Source of the DNA: Bacillota bacterium | GTDB taxonomy: Bacteria; Bacillota; Desulfotomaculia; Desulfotomaculales; Nap2-2B | NCBI GenBank assembly: GCA_040755975.1 | Contig: JBFLZY010000005.1 | Coordinates: 3,526 to 67,525 of the forward strand | Direction of reading: 5' to 3' | Length of the DNA: 64,000 bases | In this document: positions 13,977 to 29,324 of the stretch, piece after piece | Numbering within the stretch: position 1 is the stretch's first letter | Layout: each line of letters opens with the position of its first letter | Notes under the pieces: generated by a model | Seen by the model: only the letters and a program-made list of their open reading frames with translations | Database searches by the model: none | Told to the model about the DNA's origin: nothing | Program-made: the position numbers and the translations under genes

Positions 13977-13994
13977 CTGGATTAGCTCCCTGTA

Positions 13995-14033
13995 AAATAG
14001 ATTAACTGCAAAGACGCAGAGAACGCAAAGGAA
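13995..14033. repeat. solo arm of the GCAAAGAC-type element between pyrK and pyrD
   Basis: AAAATAGATTAACTGCAAAGACGCAGAGAACGCAAAGGA matches about 33/39 of 5097-5135 (AAAATAGATTAACCGCAAAGACGCAAAGAGCACAAAGAC). Confidence 0.55.
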
Positions 14034-14068
14034 CTTAACAACTTGATCGGGATAGGACCGGACATGCT

Positions 14069-14878
14069 TTACCCAAAATCTTGCCAGACCACTTCGCGGG
14101 CTTTAAAAACAGGTCCTTCCAGGCAAACGCGGCGATAAGAAACATCCTGACCCTTTTTATCCCGCATTTTGCAAACGCAGGAAAGGCAGGCGCCAACACC
14201 GCAGCCCATCCGCTCCTCCAGGGAAATTTCACCGTCCACCCCGTACTGCTCCAAAAGCGAGGCAACAACCTTTAGCATGGCCGCGGGGCCGCAGGCATAA
14301 ACGATCTCCACTTTCTTCTCCGCCAAAAGCTTCGCCAGCAGTTCCGTCACCGGCGCCCGGTGTCCGTAAGAGCCGTCATCGGTTGCCGCCAGAACGGCGG
14401 CCTTGCCGGCCAACTCCCGGACCTCACTGGCCAGAAACAATTCTCCCGCCGTGCGCGCCCCCAGCAAAACGTCCGGGGAATTGCCCGCACCGGCAAGCGT
14501 TTGCAATAGAAAATACAGGGGGGCGATCCCGATTCCCCCCGCCACCAAAGCAACGTTCTGACCGGCGGCGGGAAGGGTAAACCCCCGCCCCAGAGGCCCG
14601 ATGAGATCCAGCAAATCACCTTTCTTTTTTTGAGCCAGCAGCCGGGTGCCCCGGCCAACCACCCGGTAAAGCAGAGCAATCTCGCCGGTCCTTTGGTTGA
14701 CCGCGTGGACGCTGAAGGGACGCCGCAACAAAGGCTCCAGCCCGGGATTTATCCTGACGTGCAAAAATTGTCCGGGCCTGGCCAAGCCGGCAATTTCCGG
14801 AGAGATAAAGGATATCCGGTAGCAATCAGCAGCCAGCTTTTCCTGCCGCGAAATTTCCACCGCTGGAAAATACCTCAT
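14069..14878 (-). CDS. pyrK: dihydroorotate dehydrogenase electron-transfer subunit
   Basis: FAD/NAD-binding ferredoxin-reductase fold (RPFSV, GGIGIAP) and a C-terminal 2Fe-2S motif [11 protein letters not shown]. Confidence 0.9.
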
Positions 14879-14914
14879 AGAATTTACCCTCTCCCGGTTA
14901 AAAGGTAACTCTCA

Positions 14915-15095
14915 AAAATTTTTCATTCTAAAAATATACCTGAATAAACTGGTTTGGTTGAGGCGCTCTTTTAAGGATGTTTTGGATACAAGCAACCCGA
15001 CCAGGGACAGTCCGGAGTGGGTAGTAATGTTTTCTTCAGATTGTTCGAGGAGAAATTTCACCGGGCACCTCCAAGGTGAGGTTGATATGTTTCAT
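14915..15095 (-). pseudogene. frameshifted N-terminal remnant of a transposase-like gene
   Basis: Minus strand reads MKHINLTLEVPGEISPRTI*. Shifted by one frame it reads KFLLEQSEENITTHSGLSLVGLLVSKTSLKERLNQTSLFRYIF... The (T/S)HxGLxLVGxLL pattern recalls N-termini of IS4/IS1380-type transposases (memory only). No catalytic part is present. Confidence 0.25.
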
Positions 15096-15426
15096 TTAAC
15101 TTTGATTATCTCCATTATACTTTAAATATCGTAGAATATCAAGCGTTTTAAAAAATATCTGTAACGGATTCAGGAAAAAGAAAATCAGAACAACTCGGCT
15201 GGCCCGCATGAATTTCACCCCGAGCAGATATGTTTTACACCCGGGAAAGAAAACCCTTCGGGAACCGTGTCGAAAAAAGTAAACCGATTCCCCTCCCAAA
15301 TAGTACCTGCCGGTTACGGAATCCAGTACTCCATAAACCAACGCATTAAACGTCTTTTCTACCGAAAAGACAAAAATAAAAAATTAAAATATCTCTGTAA
15401 ATTAACTATTCATTTTGTTAAAATTT

Positions 15427-15435
15427 TGATATAAT
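15427..15435 (+). promoter_or_regulatory. extended -10 box (TGATATAAT) upstream of the DivIVA-domain gene
   Basis: TGnTATAAT lies 42 nt upstream of the ATG at 15477 in an AT-rich stretch. No good -35 box at 17 nt. Confidence 0.3.
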
Positions 15436-15476
15436 TCGGTATAAGATGTCATTTTTTGCGTTAGGGGGAAACAATC

Positions 15477-15971
15477 ATGAAGTTTCGCAGATCGTTCTTC
15501 GGCTTTAAGCCGCGGGAGGTGATTACCGCCATTGAGCAAATGGATGCCGGTTACCAGGAGAAGATCGCTCAACTGGAAAAAGAAATCGAGCACGTCCAGG
15601 GGATTTTGACCGAGACTGAGCAGGAAGCAGGGCAACTGAGGAAGCAACTTTCAGAATACGAGGAACAGAAAGCGCTGATTTCCGAAATTTTAATCAAAGC
15701 CCACCAGGAAGCCCGGCAAATTGAAGCCGAAGCAAGGGAAAACGCCCGTGCGGCTCTAGAGCAGGTAAATGCCCAGATCCGCGTCAAGGAGCAGGAGTTG
15801 AGCGTACTCAAAGCCAGGGTTGAAAAGTTCAAGGAAGAATTTAAAGAGGTGCTCGAGCGCTACCGTTACTCGCTGGAGAATTTTCCCGGCACCGGCGAGG
15901 AAAAACAGGCAACCGTCTTTTTGCTTAAGGACTCCAGGCAGGCCGCCTCTTCCCAGACAGGAGGAAAGTAG
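15477..15971 (+). CDS. DivIVA-domain coiled-coil protein, 164 aa
   Basis: N-terminus MKFRRSFFGFKPREVITAIEQMD is DivIVA-like, followed by heptad-rich E/K/Q sequence. RBS GGGGGAAAC upstream. Confidence 0.8.
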   Translation: MKFRRSFFGFKPREVITAIEQMDAGYQEKIAQLEKEIEHVQGILTETEQEAGQLRKQLSEYEEQKALISEILIKAHQEARQIEAEARENARAALEQVNAQIRVKEQELSVLKARVEKFKEEFKEVLERYRYSLENFPGTGEEKQATVFLLKDSRQAASSQTGGK

Positions 15972-16075
15972 CCATTAGCGGTCGCGCGCGGGAACACGAG
16001 TTAAAACAGGAGCTGGCCCGCCTGCAAACAAGGCTGGCCCAAAAAAGAGACGAGGTAGAGGAGCTAAGAAAAGAT

Positions 16076-19000
16076 TTGCGGAACCGGGAAGCGGAACTGG
16101 CAGGGGCTTCCGGAGCAGTGGAGCACGCCCGCAAGCTGGCTGCAGAAGTAACGGCCGCGGCTTCCGCCAGGGCACACACTGCCGCCAGGGAGCTGAATAA
16201 AACCCTGGAAGAGCCGATGGCTTATTTGTCTCAACTAAACGGCGAGATCGACGCACTGAAAAAAGAGATGTCCTTACTGGAGCAGATTACCGGCCAGGCC
16301 GGATCTCCTAAAGAAACGGCCGCTGCAGGAGGTGTCCGCAAATCCGGGGAACCCCAGAACCCGCCTCATTCAACAGGTCCTTTAGTTTCTTGTTACCTCA
16401 TCCGGCTGGTCGCTTTTTTAAACGCAAGGCACTTCCTGGTTACCAAATCACGTAAAGGATCGGTTCACGCCCACTCCTGGCAGTTCCAGGTAGAAACCGA
16501 GGTTCCTTACGGGGAAGAATTTTTCGTCATGTTCAGGGAACTTCAGGAGAAAATCCAGCAGGCGCTGGCCCCCTTCGAAAATACCCTGTTAAACGAAAAA
16601 AGCCCCTTTGACAAAATACCGCCGGTGACGGAAAATATCGGCGCATATTTCTACCAGGTCCTGAGCAAGGAACTGGAAGGGTTGGGAGTCCGGCTGCGGA
16701 AGCTGACGGCGTGGGAGTCGCCCATAAAAGGGGTGGAAGTTTCCGGGAAGCTGCCGGGGTACATCTGCCCCGTGCTGGAGGGTGCCGGAAAGACCGGAGA
16801 CCCTCCGGAAACCGAAAAGGCGGCTGCGGAAGCCGCCGCTTCCCGGGCGGCGGCACACGAAGGTCAAGACTTGAAACTCTCTGCCGCCGGAACGGCGGCG
16901 GAGAAAGAACTCACTTCCCCGGAAGCGCGCTCATACCCGCCGGTGCAGTACGTCGCGGCGGCCTGTTTAATTCTCGGGGCGGCCCTGCTTGCCTACCACC
17001 GGATCCTTTTTGCCCCGCCCCAAGCGCTATGCCCTTGGGGATCGGACACCTGGGGACACCTCTACAAAGCGGAGTTCCTGGCCGGCGAGATAGGGAAGGG
17101 AAACCTTTACCCGTCGTTGTCGGCCCAATGGTACAACGGCTGCCAGCCCTTCCGTTACTGGGCGCCGTTATCCTATTATCTTGTTGCAGCCGTAAAAAGT
17201 TGGGCGGCAAACGTTTTTCTGGCCGGAAACATTTACTTTTTCCTTTGCGCCTTCCTGGGAGGGCTGGGGTGGCTCCTTCTGGCCGGAAAACTCGGCCTCT
17301 GGCCGGCGGCCCTGGCCGGGGCAGCCTGGATCTTTTGGCCGGATAACCTCCGTGTAGCCTTTTCCGAGGGCAACCTGCCGCGGGTTGCCGCCACGGCGCT
17401 TTTGCCGTTTCTCTTCGCCTTCTTTCTTCGAACCCTGGAAGAAAGGGGCCGCCTGCGGGAACCGGCGTTTTTTGTTGCGCTTACCCACGGCGTGATCCTT
17501 TGCCACGCCATGATAGGGGCCGTCTACATAACCTCCCTTTCGGCCTTTTCTCTTCTGCTCTTTCTCTTCGGCGGCTGCTCCCTGGCAGGGGTTCTGAGGG
17601 GGGCGGCGGCCCTGGCGGCGGGAGTGGCAACCTCGGCCTGGTGGCTTCTGCCGTCCCTAAAGGGCGGCCTGGCGGAAATGGGCCGGGAAGCAGCCTCCGG
17701 GGGTATCCAGTTTATTCCGGCCGCCATCTCTTTTAACCCGCTGGCCCGGTTCGCCGACGCGGAAGTCTTTTACTGGAGCTTTGCAACGGTAATCATCGCT
17801 CTGGCAATCCTCTGGAAATGGCGGACGAGGCCGCCGTGGGTCAAGGGGGTTTTCACGCTGGGAATTTTACTGGTGCTCATTACTATCCCCGCCTTCGAAC
17901 CGCTCTACAGGCTGCTCCCCCTTCACCACCTTCTCTGGCCGCAACGCTTTTCAAGCGTTGCCGGGCTGGCCTTCCTGGCGGGCGGGTTTGCGGTGGCGGC
18001 CAGGGGCAGGGAAAAGGGGCGCCTATTCAAGCGGCTGGCCGGAGGAATCCTCCTGCTCGCCATCTCCGGGGTTATCCTGCTGGACGGTTCCCTTTCCGCC
18101 CGCCTGCTGGCAGTCGCCCGCCCCGAGCCCCGCCTCATAGTCCAGGCGGCAGACAGGCTAAAGGAGGTGCCCGGCTGGAAGGTCGCCACTTTGGATTTGA
18201 GTCAGCTCGGTTCTTCCCCGGCCTACTATTTTTCTGCCCGCTCCGGGCGGGAGCAGGTATTCGGCTGGGCCTGGCAGGGGGCCGTCACGGCCCAAAACAT
18301 CATGCTTTTAAACACCTCTTTCGAATTCGGCCACTACCCTTTTTTGTTCCGGTCGCTCCTATTCCTGGGCGCCACCGACCTCGTGGCGAAAGAAGACCTG
18401 GTTAAAGATCCCGGTTCTTTTGAAAAGCTGGCCGGGGCCGCGGGTTACCAAAAACTTTCCTCGGCCGGCGGGATCGGCCTGTGGCACGGGAGGGCAAACG
18501 GCCCCTACCTGATAATCAAAAAAGACCGCGGCCTTGCGGTGGGGAAGCACGCCAGCATATACGCCCTCCAGTTCCCGGCCCTGGAGATCGGCCGCAGCGT
18601 TTATATAGACGACTACACCCCCGAGGAGCTGGCGCGCCACCCCGTGCTCATCCTCTCCGGCGCCTCCTGCCATTCCCGGGAAAGGGCCGAAAGGCTGGTC
18701 GTGGACTACGCGAAAGGAGGAGGCAGGGTCGTCGTCGACCTCACCGGCTTTCCGCCGGACGTCTGGAGCCGGCAGCCGAAGTTCCTGGGCGTTTACGGCG
18801 AGGAAATAACCCTCGCCGGGGAGATCAAAACCCGCAGCGACGGCCGCTCCCCGCAGTTCGCCCCCTTCGCCGGGGAGTTTCAGGCGTGGAAGTGCTACGC
18901 ACCCCACGGCCTGGACGAGGTGGACCTCGCGGCCGATTACTTCAACAAAGAAGTTGCCCTGTGGGGGTATAAAAACGTCGGGGGTTCCAAGATCGGCTTT

Positions 19001-19423
19001 TTGGGCTTGAACCTGGCGTACCACGCTTACCTCACCGGGGACCCCGCGGCAAGAAAAATGCTGGCGGATGTTACCGGACTGGCGGAGGAATTCAGCCCTC
19101 CCGAAATCGTTCCCCTGGAAGAATACCAGGTTAAGGATAATGGATATTTAATCACTTATGTGCTGGAGCGCGAGGTGCGGGCAGTCATCCCTGTGGCCGC
19201 CCTGGAAGGGATGCAGGCGGAGGTTGACGGCGAGCCGGTTCCCCTGGAAAAATTCGAGAACCTCGTCCTCGTGAAGCTGCCCGCCGGGCGCCACTTCCTG
19301 GATCTAACCCTCAAAGAGCCGCCGGTCTACGCCCTGGGCAGGGCGGTTTCCCTTACCAGCCTTGCCCTTGCGCCCGCTTCCCTCTTCTGGCTCTACGGAA
19401 GGAAAAGGAGGGAAAAGGTGTGA
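16076..19423 (+). CDS. giant membrane protein: coiled-coil N-terminus + QueD/PTPS-like domain + PTPS_related (GT-C-like) polytopic domain + large C-terminal domain + terminal TM anchor
   Basis: The TTG start at 16076 is the track start (GAGGAG 12 nt upstream). The frame is open from 15929, with an alternative ATT at 15974 lying 9 nt after GGAGG. Residues ~103-225 read NARHFL...SVHAHSWQFQVE...ENTLLN...PPVTENIG...LTAWESP, which follows the PTPS/QueD pattern (HGHSY, DHxxLN, PTxENIA, ET). About 13 hydrophobic helices follow. The C-terminus is ...SLALAPASLFWLYGRKRREKV. Confidence 0.8.
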   Translation: MRNREAELAGASGAVEHARKLAAEVTAAASARAHTAARELNKTLEEPMAYLSQLNGEIDALKKEMSLLEQITGQAGSPKETAAAGGVRKSGEPQNPPHSTGPLVSCYLIRLVAFLNARHFLVTKSRKGSVHAHSWQFQVETEVPYGEEFFVMFRELQEKIQQALAPFENTLLNEKSPFDKIPPVTENIGAYFYQVLSKELEGLGVRLRKLTAWESPIKGVEVSGKLPGYICPVLEGAGKTGDPPETEKAAAEAAASRAAAHEGQDLKLSAAGTAAEKELTSPEARSYPPVQYVAAACLILGAALLAYHRILFAPPQALCPWGSDTWGHLYKAEFLAGEIGKGNLYPSLSAQWYNGCQPFRYWAPLSYYLVAAVKSWAANVFLAGNIYFFLCAFLGGLGWLLLAGKLGLWPAALAGAAWIFWPDNLRVAFSEGNLPRVAATALLPFLFAFFLRTLEERGRLREPAFFVALTHGVILCHAMIGAVYITSLSAFSLLLFLFGGCSLAGVLRGAAALAAGVATSAWWLLPSLKGGLAEMGREAASGGIQFIPAAISFNPLARFADAEVFYWSFATVIIALAILWKWRTRPPWVKGVFTLGILLVLITIPAFEPLYRLLPLHHLLWPQRFSSVAGLAFLAGGFAVAARGREKGRLFKRLAGGILLLAISGVILLDGSLSARLLAVARPEPRLIVQAADRLKEVPGWKVATLDLSQLGSSPAYYFSARSGREQVFGWAWQGAVTAQNIMLLNTSFEFGHYPFLFRSLLFLGATDLVAKEDLVKDPGSFEKLAGAAGYQKLSSAGGIGLWHGRANGPYLIIKKDRGLAVGKHASIYALQFPALEIGRSVYIDDYTPEELARHPVLILSGASCHSRERAERLVVDYAKGGGRVVVDLTGFPPDVWSRQPKFLGVYGEEITLAGEIKTRSDGRSPQFAPFAGEFQAWKCYAPHGLDEVDLAADYFNKEVALWGYKNVGGSKIGFLGLNLAYHAYLTGDPAARKMLADVTGLAEEFSPPEIVPLEEYQVKDNGYLITYVLEREVRAVIPVAALEGMQAEVDGEPVPLEKFENLVLVKLPAGRHFLDLTLKEPPVYALGRAVSLTSLALAPASLFWLYGRKRREKV

Positions 19424-20103
19424 AGTCTTTTTTAAGCCGTCCGGCCGTTTTCGTCCTCCTCATCCTGTTCATCCTGGCCGGGCCGGCCTCCGCCGCCGAC
19501 AAAATCGTGATGGACGGCAAGTTCGGCGACTGGGACGGCCAGGCGCACATAACCGACCCCGCCGGCGACGGCGGGGTCGGCGGGGACGTCATGGTCTTCT
19601 ACTGGGCCACCAACCCCGGAGAATCCAACCTTTACTTCATGGTTGAGCGCGCTTTCCCGGGTTACAACCCCGTTTCCGTTTCGTACCAGCAAAACTTCGA
19701 CATCAACAACAACGGTTCTTACACGGACTCCGTCGACCGCTACGCGGTTATCACCTATTCCCCCACCCGGAGCAAGGGTTACGTGCAGGTGAGGGTCTAC
19801 CGCGCCGACGGCACCCTTATCGCCGGTTACGGCGGCAATTGGGGGGAAGGAACAAACAAGGGGCAAAACTACTGCGAGTACTACGTCACCATGACGTACC
19901 TGGGCATTGATCCGGGCCAGACCATCAGGATGTACCTGAGCAGCCAGGCAATGCCTTCCGACCGCTGCCCGGATACTGGCGACATCCAGTGGTCGCCCGT
20001 ACCCTTTATGGGTCCGGCGGGCCTGGCGGCTCTTCTAATCCTGAGCGCAACGCTCATCGTTATCTTCTTAAAGAAAAAGGGGGAGAAGGGTTGGCTTTCT
20101 TAA
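19420..20103 (+). CDS. secreted protein with C-terminal sorting-signal-like tail (motif + TM + basic cluster), candidate exosortase substrate
   Basis: The GTG start overlaps the upstream stop (GTGTGA), with AGGAGGG 6 nt upstream. Signal peptide VFVLLILFILAGPASA|ADK. C-terminus SPVPFMGP-AGLAALLILSATLIVIFL-KKKGEK. This resembles what NCBI names a Firmicu-CTERM sorting domain (memory). Confidence 0.75.
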   Translation: MKSFLSRPAVFVLLILFILAGPASAADKIVMDGKFGDWDGQAHITDPAGDGGVGGDVMVFYWATNPGESNLYFMVERAFPGYNPVSVSYQQNFDINNNGSYTDSVDRYAVITYSPTRSKGYVQVRVYRADGTLIAGYGGNWGEGTNKGQNYCEYYVTMTYLGIDPGQTIRMYLSSQAMPSDRCPDTGDIQWSPVPFMGPAGLAALLILSATLIVIFLKKKGEKGWLS

Positions 20104-20681
20104 TGGCGGCCGCTTTATTATGGGTAGTTGGGCTGGCATTTTTCAGGAGCCACCGCATCTGGGTGTTCTACTTCCCCTGGGGGGCGGTAGGCCTGACACT
20201 CCTCCTTATTCTCTTCCTGCGGGGCTCCCCGGTGGAATACCACCTGGAACGAGCAACGGCCCTTCTCCTCCAACAGGTAATGGGCCTTTTAAGCATCCCC
20301 GCCAGCGTCTTCGACCGCGCGGCGGGGATGGTGCTGGTCTTTATCGAGGCGGAGAAAAGCTGGACAGCCCTCGGTATCGATATAGAATGCTCGGGTCTCC
20401 TGGAGAGCTGCGTCTTTTTGGGGCTGGTCTTTTTTTACCCGGCCTTTTCCCTGCCGAAAAGAATCTTCTACGCTTCAACCGGGATTCTCGCCATCTACCT
20501 CATCAACCTGCTCAGGCTGTGCACCATCGTCTTTCTCATCAACGCATGCGGGCGGCAGGCCATTTACCTGGCCCACACCCTGGCCGGGCGGCTGGTGTTC
20601 TTTTTCCTGATCGTGGCCCTGTACTGGGCGATTTTCTCCCGGCCCACCCTGGCGGCCTTGAGGGGGCACCTGCATGACTGA
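20103..20681 (+). CDS. xrtG: exosortase/archaeosortase-family transpeptidase (XrtG-like), 192 aa
   Basis: The ATG at 20103 overlaps the upstream TAA (TAATG). About 6 TM helices. Ordered Cys96 (IDIECSG, codon 20388-20390), Arg138 (INLLRL) and His158 (LAHTLAGR) match the exosortase Cys/Arg/His signature. Confidence 0.8.
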   Translation: MAAALLWVVGLAFFRSHRIWVFYFPWGAVGLTLLLILFLRGSPVEYHLERATALLLQQVMGLLSIPASVFDRAAGMVLVFIEAEKSWTALGIDIECSGLLESCVFLGLVFFYPAFSLPKRIFYASTGILAIYLINLLRLCTIVFLINACGRQAIYLAHTLAGRLVFFFLIVALYWAIFSRPTLAALRGHLHD

Positions 20682-22020
20682 GCTCTTCCTTGAAAGGGCG
20701 GCAGGCGTCCTCTTTTTCTGGGGAGTCTTTTTGCTGGCTCCCCTGCTTATCGACCTCTCCACGGCAGTAATTCACCTCGCCGCCGTCCTCCTGTTCTTAT
20801 CGCCGTCCAGGAAGGGCCCGGCGGCGGAGGTGCCGGCCAACCCGCCCTTCATTTCCGTCGTGGTCCCCGTCTACAATTCTTCCGCCACCCTTTACCAGTG
20901 CCTGAACTCGATCGTCCACCAGACCTACCCGCAAAACCGGATGGAGATCATCTGCGTGGACAACGGCAGCACGGACGACAGCTTCAGCGTCTACAAGAAA
21001 TTCCAGCTCGACCACCCCGAGGCGGTAATTTCCTGGGCCAGCCTGTCCCGCCCCTGCAAGTCCTCGGCCTTGAACGCGGGGTTCTCCTTAAGCCGGGGTG
21101 TATACTTGGTCAATGTCGACTCGGATGTGCGGGTGGAAAAGGACGCGGTGAGGAAAATGATAGCGGCTTTTGAAAACGACCCGCTTCTCGTCGCCGCCAC
21201 GGGGGAAATCCGCATCGACAAGGACCTCGGTGCGGGGAAAAATTTAATAGACGTAATTCACTACTGTGAGGCCCTGGAGTACCTGATCGCTTTTTCCATC
21301 GGGAGGCGTTTTCAAACCCTCACCAACACCATCTTTACCCTTTCGGGGGCGCTTACCGCCTTCCGCCGGGAAGCCCTCTACTGCTCGCACCTGTACTCCA
21401 GCCGCACCCTCTCCGAGGACACGGACCTCTCCTACCGCCTGCGCGACGCCCGGAAGAAAGGCTGCCGGCTGGGCTGCGTGGCGGGGGCCGTGGCCTACGT
21501 AGAACCCATTTCCTCCCTGGACCGGCTCTACTCGCAAAGGGTGAGGTGGCAGCGGGGCGAACTGGAGGTGGCCTCTTTATACAGGTGGGACACCGGCTTT
21601 TTCACGGCCTTGACCCGCTTTACCGGGCGCATCCTGATCTCCGACCACACGTTGAGCCTTTCCCGGTTAACCTGGACCTTCCTGATCCCCTTCCTGTACC
21701 TTCTGGGCTACCCCCTGCCGCTGGTTCTGGCCGCCCTGGTGGGGCTCTACATCTGCTACCTGGCCCTGGACTTCATCTATTACCTGACCGCCTGCCGGTA
21801 CGTCCCTGCGGATTACCGGACCGGGCTGAAGAAGATATGGTGGGCGGTCTTCTTCCTTCCCGTGTTTCGCTGGACCGTCTACTGGTTCCGGCTGGCGGGA
21901 ATCATCCTGGCCCTCCAGGAGCCGGGCGCGTGGAGGGTGGAAAACCCCCTTCGGAAAGCAAAGGAAGCGCTCCGGCATCTAGTTCAAAAAGTGCACAACC
22001 CGGCTTCAAAAAACTGTTAA
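20674..22020 (+). CDS. membrane-embedded processive family-2 glycosyltransferase (polysaccharide synthase type)
   Basis: ATG overlaps the xrtG stop (ATGACTGA). Motifs VVVPVYN, DNGSTDDS, VDSDV, SEDTDLSYR and QRVRWQRG (QxxRW). TM helices flank the catalytic domain. Confidence 0.85.
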   Translation: MTELFLERAAGVLFFWGVFLLAPLLIDLSTAVIHLAAVLLFLSPSRKGPAAEVPANPPFISVVVPVYNSSATLYQCLNSIVHQTYPQNRMEIICVDNGSTDDSFSVYKKFQLDHPEAVISWASLSRPCKSSALNAGFSLSRGVYLVNVDSDVRVEKDAVRKMIAAFENDPLLVAATGEIRIDKDLGAGKNLIDVIHYCEALEYLIAFSIGRRFQTLTNTIFTLSGALTAFRREALYCSHLYSSRTLSEDTDLSYRLRDARKKGCRLGCVAGAVAYVEPISSLDRLYSQRVRWQRGELEVASLYRWDTGFFTALTRFTGRILISDHTLSLSRLTWTFLIPFLYLLGYPLPLVLAALVGLYICYLALDFIYYLTACRYVPADYRTGLKKIWWAVFFLPVFRWTVYWFRLAGIILALQEPGAWRVENPLRKAKEALRHLVQKVHNPASKNC

Positions 22021-22028
22021 ACTGAAGG

Positions 22029-22403
22029 GTGTTCTCTGTGAAAAACGAATTTCTCTGGTTGATCTCATCAATTCTCCTTGGCGCCATCGGTCAGTGCCTC
22101 CTTAAGCTTTCGGTGCTCAAGATGGACGGCGTTGTTTTCAATTGGCCGAATTTCCTCCCTGTTTTGGCGAAAATATTCACCAACAGCGGGATCATTTCAG
22201 GTCTAATCATTTTTGCCGCAAGTATGATCCTGTGGTTGAAAGTTCTCTCCGAAATGGAGTTAAGCAGAGCTTATCCGTCTGTGAGTTTGGCTTATTTAGT
22301 TGTTTTCTTTTTTTCCGTTCTTTTCCTGGGAGAAAAAGTTACCGCCTGGAAGTTGGCCGGACTGGCTTGCATCATTATTGGGATCTATTTTATTCACCAC
22401 TAG
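22029..22403 (+). CDS. 4-TM SMR/EamA-like small membrane protein (ArnE/ArnF-type flippase candidate)
   Basis: 124 aa with four hydrophobic helices and the motif SRAYPSVSLAYLVV typical of the EamA/SMR fold. It lies next to a polyprenyl-phosphate glycosyltransferase gene. Confidence 0.6.
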   Translation: MFSVKNEFLWLISSILLGAIGQCLLKLSVLKMDGVVFNWPNFLPVLAKIFTNSGIISGLIIFAASMILWLKVLSEMELSRAYPSVSLAYLVVFFFSVLFLGEKVTAWKLAGLACIIIGIYFIHH

Positions 22404-22501
22404 CACCAGATAGTTAGAAAAGCCCGTATCAAACAAATTTGGCGTCATATCGCCGTAAGTGCTCCTCCCCTCCCTCGAAAATAGAAACAATAACCATAAT
22501 T

Positions 22502-22609
22502 ATGCAGAAAACTTGGGATCGAGCACGAAAGGAACATGCCGCACTACGAAGATATCATCTATCTGTGCCGGAAGCCATGGCCTGCGGAACACCTTCACCA
22601 ATGAACTGA
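22502..22609 (+). pseudogene. possible remnant of a GT4-type glycosyltransferase C-terminus
   Basis: The short frame ...RRYHLSVPEAMACGTPSPMN* resembles the GT-B motif (G)LxxLEAMACGTPV. Only about 35 codons, no RBS. Confidence 0.2.
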
Positions 22610-22646
22610 AGATAGAGTTTAATCGTTAATCCTGGGGGTTTCAGTT

Positions 22647-23612
22647 ATGGAGGATAAAAGGTATGAACCATGTGAAGCGAAGGAATTTCCCACAATATCG
22701 ATCATTGTTCCTATGTACAACGAAGCCGAGAATATTGGACCGTTTTACGAGCGGCTTAGAAAGGTCCTCGATGAGATTGGCGAGCCCTATGAGATAATCT
22801 GCGTAAACGATGGTTCAACCGATGCAACTCTGGAGAAGCTCTTGAAGCTGCGAGAAAAAGACCAGAATGTAAAGGTTATCGACTTTTCGCGAAACTTCGG
22901 CAAGGAGATAGCCCTGACGGCAGGTCTTGACTTCTCCTCAGGGATGGCAATTATTCCCATCGATGCGGATCTTCAGGACCCGCCTGAGCTGATTCCGCAT
23001 CTCGTGGCTAAGTGGAAAGAGGGTTACGAGGTGGTTTATGCTACCCGGAAAAGCCGTCATGGAGAATCTTGGTTTAAAAAGCTGGCGGCTCATGCCTTTT
23101 ACCGGCTCGCAGAAAAGATTATGGATATCAACATCCCCCGCGATACCGGTGACTTCCGCCTGATGGACAGGTCTGTGGTGGAAGCCTTAAAAGCCCTGAG
23201 GGAAAGAAACCGCTTCATGAAAGGCCTGTTTGCCTGGGTGGGTTTTAAACAGGCTGCCGTCCATTATGAGAGAGAACCTCGCCATAAGGGAAAAACCAAG
23301 TGGAATTATTTTAAGCTCTGCAACCTTGCCATAGAAGGTATTACCTCTTTTAGTTATGTTCCTCTTCGGCTGGCTACCTATGTAGGGCTTGTGGTTGCAC
23401 TCCTGGCTTTTCTTTATGCTGCTTATATCGTAATGGTCACCCTGATTTATGGCAATCCTGTGCCTGGTTGGCCCTCACTGGTTACCATTGTATTATTTTT
23501 GGGTGGGGTGCAGCTTATCTGCACCGGGATCCTTGGTGAATACATCGGGCGGATCTATAACGAGGTAAAGCAAAGGCCCGTGTATATGGTCAGACAAAAA
23601 TGGGGGTTATAG
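22647..23612 (+). CDS. family-2 glycosyltransferase, polyprenyl-phosphate sugar transferase type (GtrB/CsbB/ArnC-like)
   Basis: ISIIVPMYNE, NDGSTD, IDADLQDPPE, plus two C-terminal TM helices. RBS GGGGG upstream. Confidence 0.85.
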   Translation: MEDKRYEPCEAKEFPTISIIVPMYNEAENIGPFYERLRKVLDEIGEPYEIICVNDGSTDATLEKLLKLREKDQNVKVIDFSRNFGKEIALTAGLDFSSGMAIIPIDADLQDPPELIPHLVAKWKEGYEVVYATRKSRHGESWFKKLAAHAFYRLAEKIMDINIPRDTGDFRLMDRSVVEALKALRERNRFMKGLFAWVGFKQAAVHYEREPRHKGKTKWNYFKLCNLAIEGITSFSYVPLRLATYVGLVVALLAFLYAAYIVMVTLIYGNPVPGWPSLVTIVLFLGGVQLICTGILGEYIGRIYNEVKQRPVYMVRQKWGL

Positions 23613-23960
23613 AAAAATTATGAAAGACCTTATTAGTACAGCTCCACATAATTAAGAATCCATTTAGGCGCTTACGGTGCCTCGAACGACAACATATTGT
23701 CTAAAACTCGTTCCCGTGTCATCCCAAGGTCATAGCCAGGGGTTACTGGAGGAGCACCTGGCCCTGGTGGAAAGGCACTTTCCCGATGAGGAGTCTCTGC
23801 TTAACAATATTGGCAACAGGGGTATTAAGTTTGGAAAAGAGCAGTTAGGGAGTAATGGGGTTATCTTTTGGAACCGCCTTCTTTTTACGCCGCTACCTCA
23901 GCAATTTAACAGCCAGCGAAGTAATTCTCTAGTTCCCACCTTCTACTAAATAAAGAGAAA

Positions 23961-23983
23961 ATAGGGGTCGCTTTCGACAACCC
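23961..23983. terminator. hairpin AGGGGT-N11-ACCCCT between convergent transcription units
   Basis: 6-bp stem followed by TAAAATTAATTTT. It lies just outside the 3' end of the FAD-oxidoreductase gene. Confidence 0.3.
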
Positions 23984-24016
23984 CTTAAAATTAATTTTAC
24001 ATATTTTTTTACTTGT

Positions 24017-25870
24017 TTATCCTCGACAGTGCTCTACAAACCGTTTCACAAGCATATAACCGGCGCCGCGGCTTATTTTTCCTTCCTTGCGCACGTGCTC
24101 CAAAACAACGGGCGGCCAGAAGCCTTTTTCTTCCAGATGACGGTATGCCTGCTCAGGAGAAAGCTGGTGTCCCTGAAAGGCGCAAACTATTTCGGCAACT
24201 CTTTCCAGGGTTAGTTTTTTCCCCTGAGGATATTTTTTTATCGGCGGGGGATTAAGGCCGGCCAGACCGTTCATCCTCAGGACGGCCCAAAGGGAGTTTC
24301 GGAAGCTCTCCTCTTTCATTTCCTCGTCCAGCCGGTAGTTGTTGGTATAGCCGCCGGAAGCCAGCCCCCATTGCCGCATAAACTTAAGCCCCGGGTACGC
24401 CCAGTGATCTCCGGAAGGAATTGGCGCTTGAAAGGGTTGGAGTTCCATCCCCTGGGAATTGAGCCTGTTTTGCAACTCTTCAATAACTTCGCGAGAACTG
24501 CTCATTTCTTGAAAAGATAAATTTTTTTCAATACTTAAAGCCGCTGCAGCCCCGGCCGCCTGTCCGGTGGCCATCCCCACCGGAATCACCCTGGCGCTGC
24601 CGGCCGCCAGGGAGTCAAAGCTGGCCGAACGGCCCACCACCAGCAAGTTTTCCACCTCCCGCGGAACAAGGCACCGGAAGGGGATGGCGTATTTTGCCGG
24701 CTTGCCGATTACGTCTCCGGTGAAGTGCGGCCCGGTGGCCTGGATATCTACCGGATAGGAGCCAAAGGCGATGCGGTCCCGAAAATCCCTGTTTTCCATG
24801 ACGTCGTTGACGCTTAACCGGTAGAGGCCCTGGATGTGCCGGGAATCGCGGACGTACAACTCCGGGGCCGCGCCTTCCAGTTCCGCCCTCTCCAGACCCG
24901 GAACGTGTGTTTTGAGATAGGCGACCAGACGGGGGATTTCCTGTTCCGCTAAAAGGCGGGCCTCCTTCCGGGAATCCGGACTTAAAGGATCCACGCCAAA
25001 GATATGCAGGGCGTTTATTAAAACCCAATTACCCCGCAGGCGGCCGACATTTAAACCGCGCACGCCCAGGCGGCCGTTCGTGGGCCGGTACCCTTTCATG
25101 GTTTGCGCAAATCCCCAGGCGCTCAAATCATTGGCGCCGGTATGCGGCTCCCCGTGCTCCGCGATGGCCCGCCGCAGCCTCTGCCACTCCTCTTCCCCCA
25201 CGCCCCGCAACTTAAAAATAAGGGTGGCGGCGATGCGCTCATCCGTTCGGCCGCAGTCGCTCAAGCCCACGGTGCAGGGAACGCCCGCGGCGGCGGCGAG
25301 ATCCGCGTCCTGGGTGGCGTCGATGATCCGGCGGGCAAAAATCTCTTTTCTCTGCCCGGAAGGCAAAACCACCGCGATCCCCGTCAACACTGTTTTGCCT
25401 TCGGTTTTTTCAACCAAGGGTGTTATTTCCCGGACAGCAAGTAATTGTTCGAGCCTGTCTTCTTTGTCGAGCAAGGAACGAAAAGTCCTTGCCGCTGTTT
25501 CCAGGTCAAAAGAATCCCCTTCCACCTGTTGAAAAAACTCGAGAAAAATACCTTTATTCAGGATTTTCCGGTCCGGCCCGTAATTCATATCGATACTGTT
25601 CAGCCAGCCGCGAGTCATCAATCCGCCCGGCTCGGGGCGCGTGTCGATCAGCAGGGTGCGCAAGCCGTTGCGCGCTCCGGAAACGGCCGCCGCGATCCCT
25701 TCCGGATCGCTGCCGACCACCAAAAGATCGCAGATTGCCCCAGGCGGTAATTTTTTTTGCCCGGCGGAAAAAGAAGACGCGTTGCGCTGGTAAAAAAACC
25801 AGCCCAGCACCCACCCGGACAGAAAGAGAAATAAGAGAAGATAAAGAGCGGCTTTTTTCTGTAAAAGCAT
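24017..25870 (-). CDS. membrane-anchored FAD-dependent oxidoreductase (FAD_oxidored-type), 617 aa
   Basis: N-terminal TM (LYLLLFLFLSGWVLGWFFY), then DLLVVGSDPEGIAAAVSGARNGLRTLLID as the dinucleotide-binding fold. A C-terminal domain of ~150 aa has unknown type. Confidence 0.65.
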   Translation of the reverse strand: MLLQKKAALYLLLFLFLSGWVLGWFFYQRNASSFSAGQKKLPPGAICDLLVVGSDPEGIAAAVSGARNGLRTLLIDTRPEPGGLMTRGWLNSIDMNYGPDRKILNKGIFLEFFQQVEGDSFDLETAARTFRSLLDKEDRLEQLLAVREITPLVEKTEGKTVLTGIAVVLPSGQRKEIFARRIIDATQDADLAAAAGVPCTVGLSDCGRTDERIAATLIFKLRGVGEEEWQRLRRAIAEHGEPHTGANDLSAWGFAQTMKGYRPTNGRLGVRGLNVGRLRGNWVLINALHIFGVDPLSPDSRKEARLLAEQEIPRLVAYLKTHVPGLERAELEGAAPELYVRDSRHIQGLYRLSVNDVMENRDFRDRIAFGSYPVDIQATGPHFTGDVIGKPAKYAIPFRCLVPREVENLLVVGRSASFDSLAAGSARVIPVGMATGQAAGAAAALSIEKNLSFQEMSSSREVIEELQNRLNSQGMELQPFQAPIPSGDHWAYPGLKFMRQWGLASGGYTNNYRLDEEMKEESFRNSLWAVLRMNGLAGLNPPPIKKYPQGKKLTLERVAEIVCAFQGHQLSPEQAYRHLEEKGFWPPVVLEHVRKEGKISRGAGYMLVKRFVEHCRG

Positions 25871-25926
25871 GGCTGCCCCGTCTTTCTGGGAACTGACAAA
25901 TTTTTAAATTAAAGATCAGGCACAAA

Positions 25927-26020
25927 GCTTCCCAGCCACAATGGCACAAAGTTAATCTTCCCGGTACATTTCTCTTTGTGCCTCTGTGCCTTTGCGCCTT
26001 CGTGCCTTTATTTATGGCTT
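25927..26020. repeat. palindromic element with GGCACAAA 8-nt units immediately 3' of carB
   Basis: Left arm is GGCACAAAGCTTCCCAGCCACAATGGCACAAAG. The right arm, reverse-complemented, reads GGCACGAAGGCGCAAAGGCACAGAGGCACAAAGAGA. Confidence 0.6.
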
Positions 26021-26030
26021 TACGGACTGC

Positions 26031-29252: not shown

Positions 29253-29324
29253 TTTCCTCCCCAGAAAATAGCTTAACTTCAGCCATCGGGCTGGAATCGT
29301 CCGGCTCGCTCCGACGATACCAAG

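What the first reader, a model, noticed from the sequence alone, without database searches (positions are those of the whole stretch)
15477..23612. Translationally coupled exosortase (XrtG-like) envelope cluster with a complete lipid-linked glycosylation module and a DivIVA-domain protein
Seven co-directional genes: a DivIVA-domain protein; a 1115-aa coiled-coil/PTPS-like/GT-C-like membrane protein; a secreted protein with a C-terminal sorting tail; a 192-aa exosortase-family protein with ordered Cys96/Arg138/His158; a QxxRW processive GT2; a 4-TM SMR/EamA-like protein; and a GtrB/CsbB/ArnC-like polyprenyl-phosphate glycosyltransferase. The core four genes are coupled by overlapping stop/start codons (GTGTGA at 19418-19423, TAATG at 20101-20105, ATGACTGA at 20674-20681). 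From memory, comparative genomics (the TIGRFAMs/NCBI exosortase classification) links XrtG with a GT2 and a PTPS-related protein in Gram-positives. I know of no experimental characterisation of any member. New here is the combination in one locus of three things. First, a sugar-lipid donor synthase, a flippase candidate and a GT-C-like transferase, which is the logic of the CsbB/GtcA/YfhO and ArnC/ArnEF/ArnT extracytoplasmic glycosylation systems. Second, a polymer synthase. Third, a sortase-like transpeptidase with its substrate and a curvature/pole-targeting DivIVA module. Working hypothesis: a machine that glycosylates and covalently anchors (or releases) a surface protein or glycopolymer at defined cell sites.
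Basis: partly seen in the sequence, partly recalled or inferred. Interest (0 to 1): 0.85.

Follow-up and report, generated by a model that had tools for sequence, protein, structure and literature searches.

The report
XrtG exosortase envelope-glycan gene cluster
This is a real seven-gene operon of the XrtG exosortase type, known only from comparative genomics, in which a membrane cysteine protease, its single client protein, a sugar-polymer synthase and a lipid-linked sugar transfer pathway appear to act together at the cell surface of an uncultured Bacillota bacterium; nobody has tested what such systems do.

Summary
Seven co-directional genes lie at 15477-23612, and g2/g3, g3/g4 and g4/g5 overlap. 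g4 passes the curated XrtG model, with Cys96, Arg138 and His158 invariant. g2 combines a coiled coil, a PTPS fold that keeps its zinc triad, and a GT-C transferase (AF2 pLDDT 87; Foldseek hits to AftD, STT3 and ArnT). g5 is the XrtG-associated QxxRW GT2, 10 bits under its cutoff. g6 and g7 are an ArnF-like 4-TM protein and a PgfS/ArnC-like polyprenyl-phosphate sugar synthase.

This is the XrtG system that NCBIfam already defines, so it is not a new kind. Several points go beyond what the curated models capture:
- g3 fails the Firmicu-CTERM model but is a remote homologue (hhalign 99.9%) with its own tail, DRxPDxGDIQWSPVP + TM + basic.
- The g3 domain is repeatedly fused to the GT-C protein (11 of 150 representatives) or to XrtG (Swol_2159 of S. 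wolfei).
- The ArnF-like/GT2 pair recurs in about a dozen related loci, with non-orthologous GT2s.
- The DivIVA-like gene occurs only in the window's sub-clade.

The function is inferred. Verdict: a new variant of a known, uncharacterised system, of moderate interest.

The parts
15427..15435 (+). Extended -10 promoter-like element TGaTATAAT about 40 nt upstream of g1 (inferred operon promoter)
   Evidence: Read directly from the sequence. No Rfam family, including riboswitches, matches anywhere in 14700-24100.
15477..15971 (+). g1: 164-aa cytoplasmic coiled-coil protein, DivIVA-like, with N-terminal F-R-R-S-F-F-G-F-K-P-x-E-V motif
   Evidence: Pfam DivIVA 21.1 bits, below the gathering score of 28. 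All 6 family members hit PF05103, best E = 2e-7. Orthologues lie directly upstream of g2 in L001, L002, L011, L041, L042 and L043.
15959..15976 (+). g1/g2 junction: AGGAGG, then AAAG-TAG (g1 stop), then ATT 15974, which is in the g2 frame; probable non-canonical start of g2 or, less likely, a -1 slip site
   Evidence: The g2 frame is open and its amino-acid sequence is conserved from this point in the window, L041 and L042, with no ATG/GTG/TTG. No RNA structure follows (z = 0.07, -1.0, 0.3).
16076..19423 (+). g2: 1115-aa protein (probably about 1149 aa from 15974) with N-terminal cytoplasmic coiled coil, PTPS/QueD-fold domain (res. 106-222; zinc triad H119/H131/H133 and T185-E186-N187 kept; no conserved Cys where I place QueD's catalytic Cys from memory), GT-C membrane domain (res. 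289-680; invariant G322, D324, H328), extracytoplasmic domain (700-1080) and a last TM helix (1083-1114)
   Evidence: TIGR03112 74.4 bits, PF01242 and PF10131 at 1.9e-144. AF2 mean pLDDT 87.3. Foldseek: AftD 1.7e-9, STT3 6e-8, AglB, DPY19, AftA, ArnT, PglB; PTPS/QueD TM-score 0.8-0.86. Residue conservation. PF10131 is listed in the Pfam GT-C clan with function unknown (PMC7801869).
19420..20103 (+). g3: 227-aa secreted beta-sandwich protein with signal peptide (ASA|AD); the dedicated XrtG client; a remote homologue of Firmicu-CTERM proteins
   Evidence: TIGR04145 only 11.6 bits against a cutoff of 50. A family profile finds 349 representatives, and 27 of 79 scanned hit TIGR04145. hhalign against the STxSTYP class gives 99.9%, E = 3.5e-33. 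AF2 pLDDT 76.9 with core above 90. No significant PDB fold match and no Pfam family. It is the only such protein in the window.
19960..20100 (+). Tripartite C-terminal sorting signal of g3: D181-R-C-P-D-T-G-D-I-Q-W-S-P-V-P195, TM helix about 199-218, basic tail KKKGEK
   Evidence: D181, R182, P184, D185, G187, D188, I189, W191, P193, P195 and G198 are invariant in A2. 104 of 123 complete family members end in a TM helix plus basic residues.
20103..20681 (+). g4: XrtG exosortase, 192 aa (196 aa if TTG 20091 is the start); Cys96 (20388-20390), Arg138 (20514-20516), His158 (20574-20576)
   Evidence: TIGR03110 123.1 bits over a cutoff of 102.75; TIGR04178 55.5 bits over 23. The triad is invariant in A1.
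20674..22020 (+). g5: 448-aa membrane GT2 with the motifs of a processive synthase (VDNGS, DSD, SED, QRVRW); XrtG-associated family, closest characterised relatives PgaC/IcaA
   Evidence: TIGR03111 354.2 bits (cutoff 363.95); PgaC_IcaA 119.4 bits. Adjacent to XrtG in 40 of 40 genome loci. Motifs read from the translation.
22029..22403 (+). g6: 4-TM ArnF/ArnE-like, EamA-type small membrane protein (likely start 22038, 121 aa); candidate flippase for polyprenyl-phosphate-sugar
   Evidence: ArnF 61.1 bits (cutoff 99), ArnE 29 bits, EamA 33.6 bits over 28.2. 73% identical to the L041 orthologue, with the same low GC in both. Recurs next to a GT2 in L001, L002, L003, L009, L010, L012, L018, L041 and L043.
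22647..23612 (+). g7: 321-aa GtrB/CsbB/ArnC/PgfS-type GT2 with two C-terminal TM helices; polyprenyl-phosphate sugar synthase; a non-orthologous replacement of the 253-263-aa GT2 found in the closest relatives
   Evidence: PgfS 315.7 bits (cutoff 500), ArnC 196.7 bits. Only 34% identical to the short GT2 of L041 and L043. Those short GT2s belong to the same enzyme class (PgfS 67, PpgS 63, ArnC 53 bits). Closest copies are in L007 and L009.

Best explanation
This is an operon for an XrtG-type envelope assembly complex. Shown by computation: XrtG (g4) is a polytopic membrane cysteine enzyme of the exosortase/archaeosortase family with its Cys/Arg/His triad intact. g3 is its single, adjacent client, a Sec-exported beta-sandwich protein ending in a conserved motif (DRxPDxGDIQWSPVP), one TM helix and a basic tail. 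g2 is a GT-C-fold glycosyltransferase with a cytoplasmic coiled coil and a zinc-site-bearing PTPS-fold domain. g5 is a membrane GT2 with the motifs of a processive synthase, related to PgaC/IcaA. g7 and g6 belong to the polyprenyl-phosphate sugar synthase class and the ArnE/F-like small-transporter class. Inferred mechanism: g5 polymerises and exports a beta-linked (HexNAc-type) glycan. g7 loads a sugar onto undecaprenyl phosphate on the cytoplasmic face, g6 flips it, and the GT-C domain of g2 transfers it outside the membrane, most likely onto the g5 polymer rather than onto g3. g3 sits next to the GT-C and XrtG proteins as a partner domain. XrtG cuts g3 after the conserved motif, forms a thioester, and passes the new C-terminus to an amine acceptor (a lipid head group or the glycan), so that g3 changes from a TM-anchored to a covalently tethered surface protein. 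g1 and the coiled coil of g2 form a cytoplasmic scaffold whose targeting role is unproven.
For: Curated-model hits for XrtG, the PTPS-related domain, PF10131, EamA and GT2. Invariant catalytic triad. GT-C fold of g2 from a confident model, with D324 and H328 invariant after TM1. Tripartite tail conserved in 349 family representatives. Homology of g3 to the Firmicu-CTERM class. XrtG and GT2 adjacent in 40 of 40 loci, and the g2-g3-g4-g5 order with overlapping genes present from the closest to the most distant relatives. Rosetta-stone fusions: GT-C::g3 in 11 of 150 representatives and g3::XrtG in 4, including Swol_2159 of an isolate genome with 33 cluster members. The ArnF-like + GT2 pair recurs at different positions in about a dozen loci, with two non-orthologous GT2 types of the same class, which argues for selection on the function rather than inherited adjacency. 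Homologue precedent: ArtA uses an active-site Cys and is proposed to form a thioester resolved by a lipid amine (PMC7157517). Analogue precedent: three-component GT-C glycosylation systems (PMC8035078, PMC5836110, PMC7389260, PMC5856776).
Against: No biochemical or genetic data exist for any XrtG system. The sugar, the polymer, the GT-C acceptor, the XrtG cleavage site and the XrtG acceptor are all inferred. g3 has no significant structural match (best Foldseek E = 0.057), so its proposed glycan-binding role is weak. g5 is 10 bits below the TIGR03111 cutoff, and g3 is far below the TIGR04145 cutoff. g7 follows a 244-nt gap and was swapped in, so it could be transcribed separately. Chloroflexota XrtG loci lack the GT-C, g6 and g7 genes yet keep a stand-alone PTPS-fold protein, so the GT-C branch is not essential to XrtG function, and the role of the PTPS-fold domain is unexplained by this model.
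Confidence: 0.5

Rival explanations
1. Protein O- or N-glycosylation and sorting machine. g3 is the acceptor substrate of the GT-C enzyme g2, which uses the Und-P-sugar made by g7 and flipped by g6, as in the Pgf system of Streptococcus mutans. XrtG then anchors or releases the glycoprotein.
For: g7's best curated hit is PgfS (315.7 bits). Pgf systems glycosylate sortase-anchored adhesins with a GT2, small membrane protein and GT-C set (PMC5856776 and bioRxiv 10.1101/2024.05.05.592596). STT3, PglB and AglB oligosaccharyltransferases are among g2's best structural matches. Archaeosortase substrates such as the S-layer glycoprotein are glycoproteins (my own knowledge).
Against: g3 has no Ser/Thr-rich disordered linker, which is what Pgf- and PMT-type systems modify (read from the translation). 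g3 is repeatedly fused in-frame to the GT-C enzyme (11 of 150 representatives), which is unusual for a multiple-turnover enzyme and its substrate. Foldseek's best match is AftD, a polymer-building GT-C.
Confidence: 0.2
2. g3 is a permanent BcsB-like accessory subunit of the g5 synthase: a signal peptide, an extracytoplasmic beta-sandwich that guides the polymer, and a C-terminal TM anchor packed against the synthase. XrtG acts only as a maturation or quality-control protease, or as a scaffold. No transfer to lipid or glycan occurs.
For: g3's topology matches that of BcsB-type partners (my own knowledge of cellulose synthase). g3, g4 and g5 are translationally coupled. In the GT-C and XrtG fusions, g3 stays physically attached to the complex. 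g3's weak structural matches include CBM56 and CBM9 carbohydrate-binding modules.
Against: The invariant Cys/Arg/His triad and the strongly conserved motif just outside the TM helix are the hallmarks of a cleaved sorting signal. The homologous enzyme ArtA cleaves its substrates, which become lipid-modified (PMC7157517). The CBM-like similarity is not significant (best E = 0.057) and no Pfam carbohydrate-binding family recurs in the family.
Confidence: 0.15
3. g6 and g7 (and possibly g1) are neighbours serving another envelope pathway, such as teichoic acid or S-layer glycosylation, and do not feed the XrtG system.
For: A 244-nt gap lies before g7. g7 is not orthologous to the GT2 in the closest relatives. 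L042 lacks both genes and has UbiA, DUF362 and LPG_synthase_TM genes instead. Chloroflexota loci lack them.
Against: An ArnF-like gene next to a polyprenyl-phosphate-type GT2 occurs inside or beside the XrtG cluster in L001, L002, L003, L009, L010, L012, L018, L041 and L043, sometimes between g2 and g3. A GT-C enzyme needs a lipid-linked donor, and no other donor synthase is in the cluster. L007 pairs a second PTPS-related paralogue directly with a PgfS-type GT2.
Confidence: 0.1

Closest known systems
XrtG / Firmicu-CTERM system as defined by NCBIfam/TIGRFAMs (TIGR03110, TIGR03111, TIGR03112, TIGR04145); annotated for example in Lactiplantibacillus plantarum LP_RS09075-09090 (PMC12854382)
   Same: Same four-part core in the same order, with overlapping genes: PTPS-related membrane protein, small secreted protein with a C-terminal TM tail, XrtG, GT2. 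XrtG and the PTPS-related domain pass their curated cutoffs.
   Different: g3 fails TIGR04145 (11.6 bits against 50) and has a different tail motif (GDIQWSPVP rather than the STxSTYP seen in the class that TIGR04145 recognises). g5 is just under the TIGR03111 cutoff. Added genes: DivIVA-like g1, ArnF-like g6 and PgfS-like g7. The clade is high-GC Bacillota (relatives include Syntrophomonadaceae, Peptococcaceae and Thermincola), and related loci reach Chloroflexota and Coriobacteriia.
Archaeosortase A (ArtA) and PGF-CTERM substrates of Haloferax volcanii
   Same: A homologous enzyme family with an active-site Cys; a tripartite C-terminal signal; cleavage coupled to covalent lipid attachment; the machinery is localised at a defined cell site, midcell (PMC7157517).
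   Different: ArtA serves many substrates encoded elsewhere in the genome, whereas XrtG has one adjacent client. Here there are no PssA/PssD-type partners. No GT2 or GT-C genes are coupled to artA. Cleavage and lipidation are untested for XrtG.
Three-component extracytoplasmic glycosylation systems: CsbB/GtcA/YfhO, ArnC/ArnEF/ArnT, GtrA/B/V, PgfS/M1/M2
   Same: A GT2 that makes polyprenyl-phosphate-sugar (g7), a small 4-TM membrane protein (g6) and a GT-C transferase (g2). g7's best curated hits are PgfS and ArnC, and g6's is ArnF.
   Different: None reaches equivalog cutoffs. The GT-C belongs to PF10131, which has no characterised member and carries a cytoplasmic coiled coil and PTPS-fold domain. 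The module is embedded in an exosortase and polymer-synthase operon. The acceptor is unknown.
PEP-CTERM/exosortase (EpsH, XrtA) systems of Gram-negative bacteria
   Same: Exosortase genes sit within exopolysaccharide loci; the Cys/Arg/His triad is conserved; the sorting signal is a motif, a TM helix and basic residues (PMC1569441).
   Different: Those systems have many clients per genome and occur in bacteria with an outer membrane. XrtG systems are one-to-one and occur mostly in monoderm lineages.
PgaC/IcaA poly-beta-1,6-GlcNAc synthases
   Same: g5 shares the membrane GT2 architecture and the D, DxD, ED and QxxRW motifs, and PgaC_IcaA is its best characterised-family hit (119 bits).
   Different: It scores far below the equivalog cutoff (422 bits). 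No PgaD/IcaD, deacetylase or porin genes are in the cluster. The product is unknown.

Membership tests
XrtG exosortase (TIGR03110) | Whole-protein score at or above the curated cutoff | tested here: met
   123.1 bits against a cutoff of 102.75; model positions 7-181 of 187 covered.
XrtG exosortase (TIGR03110) | Exosortase/archaeosortase signature region with ordered, conserved Cys, Arg and His | tested here: met
   TIGR04178 55.5 bits against 23, over residues 92-178. C96, R138 and H158 are invariant in 16 homologues. A direct alignment to the mutated ArtA residues was not made.
XrtG exosortase (TIGR03110) | Peptidase or transpeptidase activity on the C-terminal signal | not testable with these tools
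   Needs mass spectrometry of g3 in wild type and in a Cys96 mutant.
XrtG system (gene-neighbourhood definition) | Adjacent TIGR03111 XrtG-associated GT2 | tested here: inconclusive
   354.2 bits against a cutoff of 363.95, so formally below it. However, it is the top hit by more than 230 bits, and the orthologue is adjacent to XrtG in 40 of 40 loci.
XrtG system (gene-neighbourhood definition) | Adjacent protein with the TIGR03112 PTPS-related domain | tested here: met
   74.4 bits against 69.35; PF10131 at E = 1.9e-144.
Firmicu-CTERM sorting-domain proteins (TIGR04145) | Score at or above the curated cutoff of 50 bits | tested here: not met
   11.6 bits, E = 0.2. Even the intermediate class reaches only 44.7 bits.
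Firmicu-CTERM sorting-domain proteins (TIGR04145) | Homology over the whole protein, position immediately upstream of xrtG, and a tripartite tail | tested here: met
   hhalign 99.9%, E = 3.5e-33 over 191 columns against a class of which 16 of 17 members hit TIGR04145. Position and tail shown.
GT-C glycosyltransferases (Pfam clan CL0111) | Multi-TM GT-C fold with a conserved acidic residue in the first extracytoplasmic loop | tested here: met
   Foldseek hits to AftD, STT3, AglB, DPY19, AftA, ArnT and PglB, E from 1.7e-9 to 1e-4, probability 1.0. D324 is invariant in 70 of 70 sequences just after TM1. Clan listing in PMC7801869.
GT-C glycosyltransferases (Pfam clan CL0111) | Use of a polyprenyl-phosphate-linked sugar donor | not testable with these tools
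   Inferred from the fold and from the co-located g6 and g7.
PTPS / QueD T-fold enzymes | Fold and zinc-binding His triad | tested here: met
   PF01242 55.8 bits. TM-score 0.8-0.86 to PTPS and QueD structures. H119, H131, H133 and T-E-N are conserved in at least 60 of about 62 sequences that have the domain.
PTPS / QueD T-fold enzymes | Catalytic Cys four residues before the HxH motif | tested here: not met
   Position 127 is variable (K, A, P, Q) and has no Cys. The position was mapped from my memory of the E. coli QueD sequence, not from an alignment. QueD model TIGR03367 gives 26.9 bits against a cutoff of 89. It is therefore not a canonical PTPS or QueD enzyme.
DivIVA (PF05103) | Score at or above the Pfam gathering threshold | tested here: not met
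   21.1 bits against 28 for the window protein.
DivIVA (PF05103) | Family-level similarity, including the N-terminal domain | tested here: inconclusive
   All 6 family members hit PF05103 (best E = 2e-7), and the window match spans model positions 10-131. However, a family profile found only generic coiled coils in the PDB. Membrane-curvature binding was not tested.
Polyprenyl-phosphate sugar synthases (GtrB/CsbB/ArnC/PgfS) | GT2 domain followed by two C-terminal TM helices; similarity to curated members | tested here: met
   PgfS 315.7 bits over positions 3-304 of 308, and ArnC 196.7 bits over 5-310 of 316. Both are below equivalog cutoffs, so this is membership of the class, not of either named enzyme.
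ArnE/ArnF-type small flippase subunits | About 110-125 aa, four TM helices, EamA/SMR-like | tested here: inconclusive
   ArnF 61.1 bits against a cutoff of 99; EamA 33.6 bits against 28.2. The architecture fits, but flipping activity is untestable here.

The most novel reading that the evidence does not exclude
XrtG, its beta-sandwich client and the PF10131 GT-C enzyme form one membrane complex in which the exosortase joins the client's new C-terminus covalently to the nascent GT2-made glycan or to a membrane lipid. That would be the first described protein-to-glycan or protein-to-lipid 'glyco-sortase' of monoderm bacteria. A DivIVA-like scaffold would position it at specific cell sites, and the zinc-binding PTPS-fold domain would act as a cytoplasmic sensor or donor-modifying module.
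Probability: 0.2. Interest if true: 0.8.

Novelty: new variant of a known kind. Interest (0 to 1): 0.55.

Why it matters
Exosortases are widespread, yet apart from archaeal ArtA almost nothing about them has been shown biochemically, and I found no experiment on any XrtG system. This locus and its relatives give concrete, testable handles:
- a one-enzyme, one-client pair with a sharply defined tail motif;
- natural fusions implying that the client, the sortase and a GT-C glycosyltransferase are in physical contact;
- a self-contained lipid-linked sugar supply.

The analysis also shows that the curated Firmicu-CTERM model misses most of the client family. The window protein and about two thirds of the 79 members scanned do not hit it, and the best hit stays below its cutoff. 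XrtG systems also extend into Chloroflexota and Coriobacteriia, with different cargo. PF10131 is a large GT-C family with no known function, and this context suggests where to look for its acceptor. L. plantarum has an annotated XrtG system and S. wolfei is a cultured isolate, so experiments are feasible.

Tried and rejected
- Regulatory RNA: an Rfam scan of 14700-24100 at E <= 1 found nothing relevant, so there is no riboswitch or leader.
- Programmed -1 frameshift fusing g1 to g2: a slippery A-AAR before the stop is conserved, but no stable or conserved downstream structure follows, and more distant loci have ordinary starts. Kept only as a minor alternative to an ATT/ATC start.
- g3 as a recognisable carbohydrate-binding module: Foldseek's best E was 0.057. 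A Pfam scan of 79 family members gave only weak GEVED hits in 7 and no CBM family. Not supported.
- A remnant of the short GT2 in the 244-nt gap: tblastn found none.
- g6/g7 as a recent foreign insert, on the basis of low GC: rejected for g6, whose orthologue in L041 is 73% identical with the same low GC. g7 really is a replacement.
- DivIVA fusion to g2 in relatives: the PF05103 hits in P0058 and P0063 lie in the coiled coil, and those proteins lack the g1 N-terminal motif, so they are not evidence of a g1-g2 fusion.
- Profile search of g1 against PDB sequences: only generic coiled coils.
- Haft et al. 2012, the founding XrtG description: not held by DOI or by PMC3256604. What it says is therefore cited only from memory and from NCBIfam model names.
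- Canonical Lactobacillales or Enterococcus XrtG loci could not be fetched. The single genome scan used a motif specific to this sub-family.

Full report

Yes. Seven ORFs lie on the + strand exactly where stated:
- g1: 15477-15971, 164 aa
- g2: 16076-19423, 1115 aa
- g3: 19420-20103, 227 aa
- g4: 20103-20681, 192 aa
- g5: 20674-22020, 448 aa
- g6: 22029-22403, 124 aa
- g7: 22647-23612, 321 aa

The three overlaps (GTGTGA, TAATG, ATGACTGA) are in the sequence. The same 4-nt and 8-nt overlaps recur in relatives from 85% down to about 35% identity, so the coupling is conserved.

Three small corrections apply. g6 probably starts at GTG 22038, giving 121 aa like its orthologues. XrtG may start at TTG 20091, as in the 196-aa public gene call. 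g2 almost certainly starts upstream of TTG 16076 (section 5).

**2. What each gene is**

- **g4** passes the curated XrtG model (TIGR03110, 123.1 against 102.75 bits) and the exo/archaeosortase signature (55.5 against 23 bits). Cys96, Arg138 and His158 are invariant in 16 homologues.
- **g2** carries the TIGR03112 domain (74.4 against 69.35 bits), Pfam PTPS, and PF10131 at E = 1.9e-144.
  - A 70-sequence AlphaFold2 model is confident, with mean pLDDT 87.3. It shows a long N-terminal helix, a PTPS fold (106-222), a multi-TM domain (289-680), a large extracytoplasmic domain and a last TM helix.
  - Foldseek matches the membrane part to AftD, STT3, AglB, DPY19, AftA, ArnT and PglB (E from 1.7e-9 to 1e-4). 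It matches the N-terminal domain to PTPS and QueD with TM-score 0.8-0.86.
  - G322, D324 and H328 (PWGSDTWGH), just after TM1, are invariant in 70 of 70 sequences. That is the usual place for the GT-C catalytic acid.
  - The PTPS-fold domain keeps the zinc triad (H119, H131, H133) and the T-E-N motif. It has no Cys where I place QueD's catalytic Cys from memory of the E. coli sequence. It is probably a ligand-binding or altered-function domain.
  - Pfam lists PF10131 in the GT-C clan with function unknown (PMC7801869).
- **g5** is the XrtG-associated GT2 (TIGR03111, 354.2 against 363.95 bits, just under). It has the VDNGS, DSD, SED and QRVRW motifs, and PgaC/IcaA is its nearest characterised family at 119 bits.
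- **g6** is a 4-TM ArnF/ArnE-like EamA protein.
- **g7** is a GtrB/ArnC/PgfS-type GT2 with two C-terminal TM helices (PgfS 315.7 bits, ArnC 196.7 bits).
- **g1** is a coiled-coil protein. Its DivIVA score is 21.1 bits, below the Pfam threshold of 28, but all six family members hit that model.

**3. The client protein g3**

g3 matches no Pfam or NCBIfam family at normal thresholds. The Firmicu-CTERM model (TIGR04145), which spans a whole protein of about 190 aa, gives only 11.6 bits against a cutoff of 50.

Its nine close homologues share three features:
- a signal peptide;
- a conserved core;
- an almost invariant C-terminus, DRxPDxGDIQWSPVPxxG, followed by one TM helix and a basic tail.

A profile search of 1.84 billion representative proteins found 349 relatives at E <= 0.001. 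Of 123 complete ones among the best 150, 104 end in a TM helix plus basic residues.

Of 79 members scanned, 27 hit TIGR04145 at E <= 0.001. These belong largely to a class with the tail DRxPDxGxIxISTxSTYP:
- 16 of 17 of that class hit the model, though the best scores only 44.7 bits.
- hhalign between the window's clade and that class gives 99.9%, E = 3.5e-33, over the full length.

g3 is therefore a remote homologue of Firmicu-CTERM proteins that the curated model does not reach.

Its predicted structure is a beta-sandwich (pLDDT 76.9, core above 90). It has no significant PDB match; the best, at E = 0.057, include CBM56 and CBM9. It is the only such protein in the 64-kb window.

**4. Conservation and fusions**

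A genome scan gave 40 XrtG loci, and four more came from protein look-ups.

- XrtG and the GT2 are adjacent in 40 of 40 loci.
- The full-length PTPS-related GT-C and g3 accompany them in Bacillota and in some Chloroflexota.
- Dehalococcoidia and Tepidiforma loci differ. They have a stand-alone PTPS-fold protein and a different, Pro/Thr-rich secreted protein that also ends in a TM helix plus basic tail, and they have no GT-C.
- g1 occurs only in the window's sub-clade: L001, L002, L011, L041, L042 and L043, always directly upstream of g2.
- An ArnF-like gene next to a polyprenyl-phosphate-type GT2 occurs in L001, L002, L003, L009, L010, L012, L018, L041 and L043. Its position varies: upstream of g2, between g2 and g3, or downstream of g5.
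- The window's g6 is orthologous to L041's (73% identity). The window's g7 is only 34% identical to the 263-aa GT2 that occupies that place in L041 and L043. That short GT2 belongs to the same enzyme class. Replacement by a different gene of the same class argues that the function is what selection keeps.

The fusions are the most informative result:
- In L043 the g3 domain is fused in-frame to the C-terminus of g2 (51% identity, E = 1e-68).
- Among the best 150 family representatives, all mutually below about 50% identity, 11 are such GT-C::g3 fusions and 4 are g3::XrtG fusions.
- One g3::XrtG fusion is Swol_2159 of the isolate Syntrophomonas wolfei Goettingen. Its cluster has 33 members from many assemblies, so the fusion is not an assembly artefact.

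These fusions tie the client, the sortase and the GT-C enzyme into one physical unit.

**5. The g1/g2 junction**

The g2 reading frame is open, and its amino-acid sequence is conserved, from immediately after the g1 stop. This holds in the window and in its 75% and 71% relatives, with no ATG, GTG or TTG present.

A conserved ATT/ATC codon lies 3 nt after the stop and 9 nt after AGGAGG. Alternatively, a -1 slip on A-AAG or A-AAA before the stop would fuse g1 to g2. No stable or conserved RNA structure follows, and more distant loci have ordinary starts. A non-canonical ATY start is the simpler reading.

**6. How it most likely works**

The following is inferred.
1. g5 makes and exports a beta-linked glycan.
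2. g7 charges undecaprenyl phosphate with a sugar, g6 flips it, and the GT-C domain of g2 transfers it outside the membrane.
3. The likely acceptor is the polymer rather than g3, for three reasons. g3 has no Ser/Thr-rich linker. g3 is repeatedly fused to the enzyme. The best structural match, AftD, builds polymers.
4. XrtG cleaves g3 after the conserved motif through a Cys96 thioester and transfers the new C-terminus to an amine acceptor. This follows the model proposed for its homologue ArtA, which has an active-site Cys and lipid-modified substrates (PMC7157517).
5. g1 and the g2 coiled coil form a cytoplasmic scaffold. ArtA's midcell localisation is a precedent for site-specific action, but here this is conjecture.

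The PTPS-fold domain is unexplained. It travels with XrtG and the GT2 even where the GT-C is absent.

**7. Comparison with what is known, and novelty**

The core is the XrtG system already encoded in NCBIfam models and used in genome annotation. An L. plantarum transcriptomics paper lists a 'complete Exosortase G system' (PMC12854382).

Full-text searches for XrtG, Firmicu-CTERM, the TIGR accessions and PF10131 found no functional study. The founding paper (Haft et al. 2012) was not available to me.

The locus is therefore a new variant of a known but uncharacterised kind. Its client is divergent, and it carries an added lipid-linked sugar module and a DivIVA-like gene.

What I did not find in the curated models or the searchable literature:
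- the breadth of the client family;
- the fusions;
- the recurrence of the sugar-donor module;
- the reach into Chloroflexota and Coriobacteriia.

**8. Context**

The cluster and an FAD-dependent oxidoreductase gene (24017-25870, minus strand) lie between carA/carB and pyrK/pyrD, all on the minus strand. They therefore split what is normally one pyr operon. Relatives have the cluster in other contexts.

Noticed in passing
window 13056-30422: The XrtG cluster (+ strand) and an FAD_oxidored gene (24017-25870, - strand) lie between carA/carB (26031-30422, -) and pyrK/pyrD (13056-14878, -). A normally contiguous pyrimidine biosynthesis operon is thus split by an insert of about 11 kb. Close relatives carry the cluster in unrelated contexts: next to sleB/ypeB and dsr genes in L041, and next to UbiA in L042.
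   Followed up: partly
window 15959-16078; L041 2020-2181; L042 780-895: g2's conserved coding sequence begins right after the g1 stop without any ATG, GTG or TTG in three relatives. Either a non-canonical ATT/ATC start lies 9 nt after AGGAGG, or a -1 slip on A-AAR before the stop fuses g1 to g2. No downstream RNA structure was found. Gene callers place the start 100-150 nt too far downstream, at different codons.
   Followed up: yes
P0142/P0270 (Swol_2159, Syntrophomonas wolfei); also P0137, P0224, P0197: These are natural fusions of the Firmicu-CTERM-like client with XrtG in one polypeptide, so the tripartite signal is internal. RefSeq calls a 387-aa version 'exosortase family protein XrtG'. 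ArtA is reported to process an internal tripartite signal (reference 12 of PMC7157517).
   Followed up: partly
L043 954-5123 (P0031); P0120, P0126, P0149, P0167, P0176, P0188, P0192, P0198, P0212, P0235: The client domain is fused to the C-terminus of the PF10131 GT-C protein in 11 of 150 mutually divergent representatives. The client's signal peptide becomes an extra TM helix.
   Followed up: yes
L035 7894-11930 (Tepidiforma flava) and L021-L040: Chloroflexota XrtG loci have a stand-alone 173-aa PTPS-fold protein, a 538-aa Pro/Thr-rich secreted protein ending GAPTMGW + TM + NRK, then XrtG and the GT2. They have no GT-C, ArnF-like or GtrB-like genes. The PTPS-fold partner is therefore more tightly linked to XrtG and the GT2 than the GT-C is.
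   Followed up: partly
L007 447-4821: A second full-length PTPS-related GT-C paralogue sits directly next to a PgfS-type GT2 (683 bits to the g7 profile), upstream of the XrtG core. This suggests that the GT-C and the donor synthase travel as a pair.
   Followed up: no
L042 7012-10054: In the 71%-identical relative, the place of g6/g7 is taken by UbiA prenyltransferase, DUF362 and LPG_synthase_TM genes, possibly an alternative lipid-carrier module.
   Followed up: no
window 22029-22403 and 20091-20105: Likely start-codon corrections. g6 would start at GTG 22038 (121 aa, spacing to GAAGGG fits, same length as orthologues). XrtG might start at TTG 20091 (196 aa, GGGGGAG 5 nt upstream), which would make the g3/g4 overlap 13 nt rather than 1 nt.
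   Followed up: partly
window 19420-20103 (g3 residues 94-106): A conserved D-x-N-N-N-G-x-x-x-D-x-x-D loop resembles calcium-binding loops of FG-GAP or dockerin type. One fusion homologue gave a weak FG-GAP_3 hit. Metal binding by the client is possible but untested.
   Followed up: no
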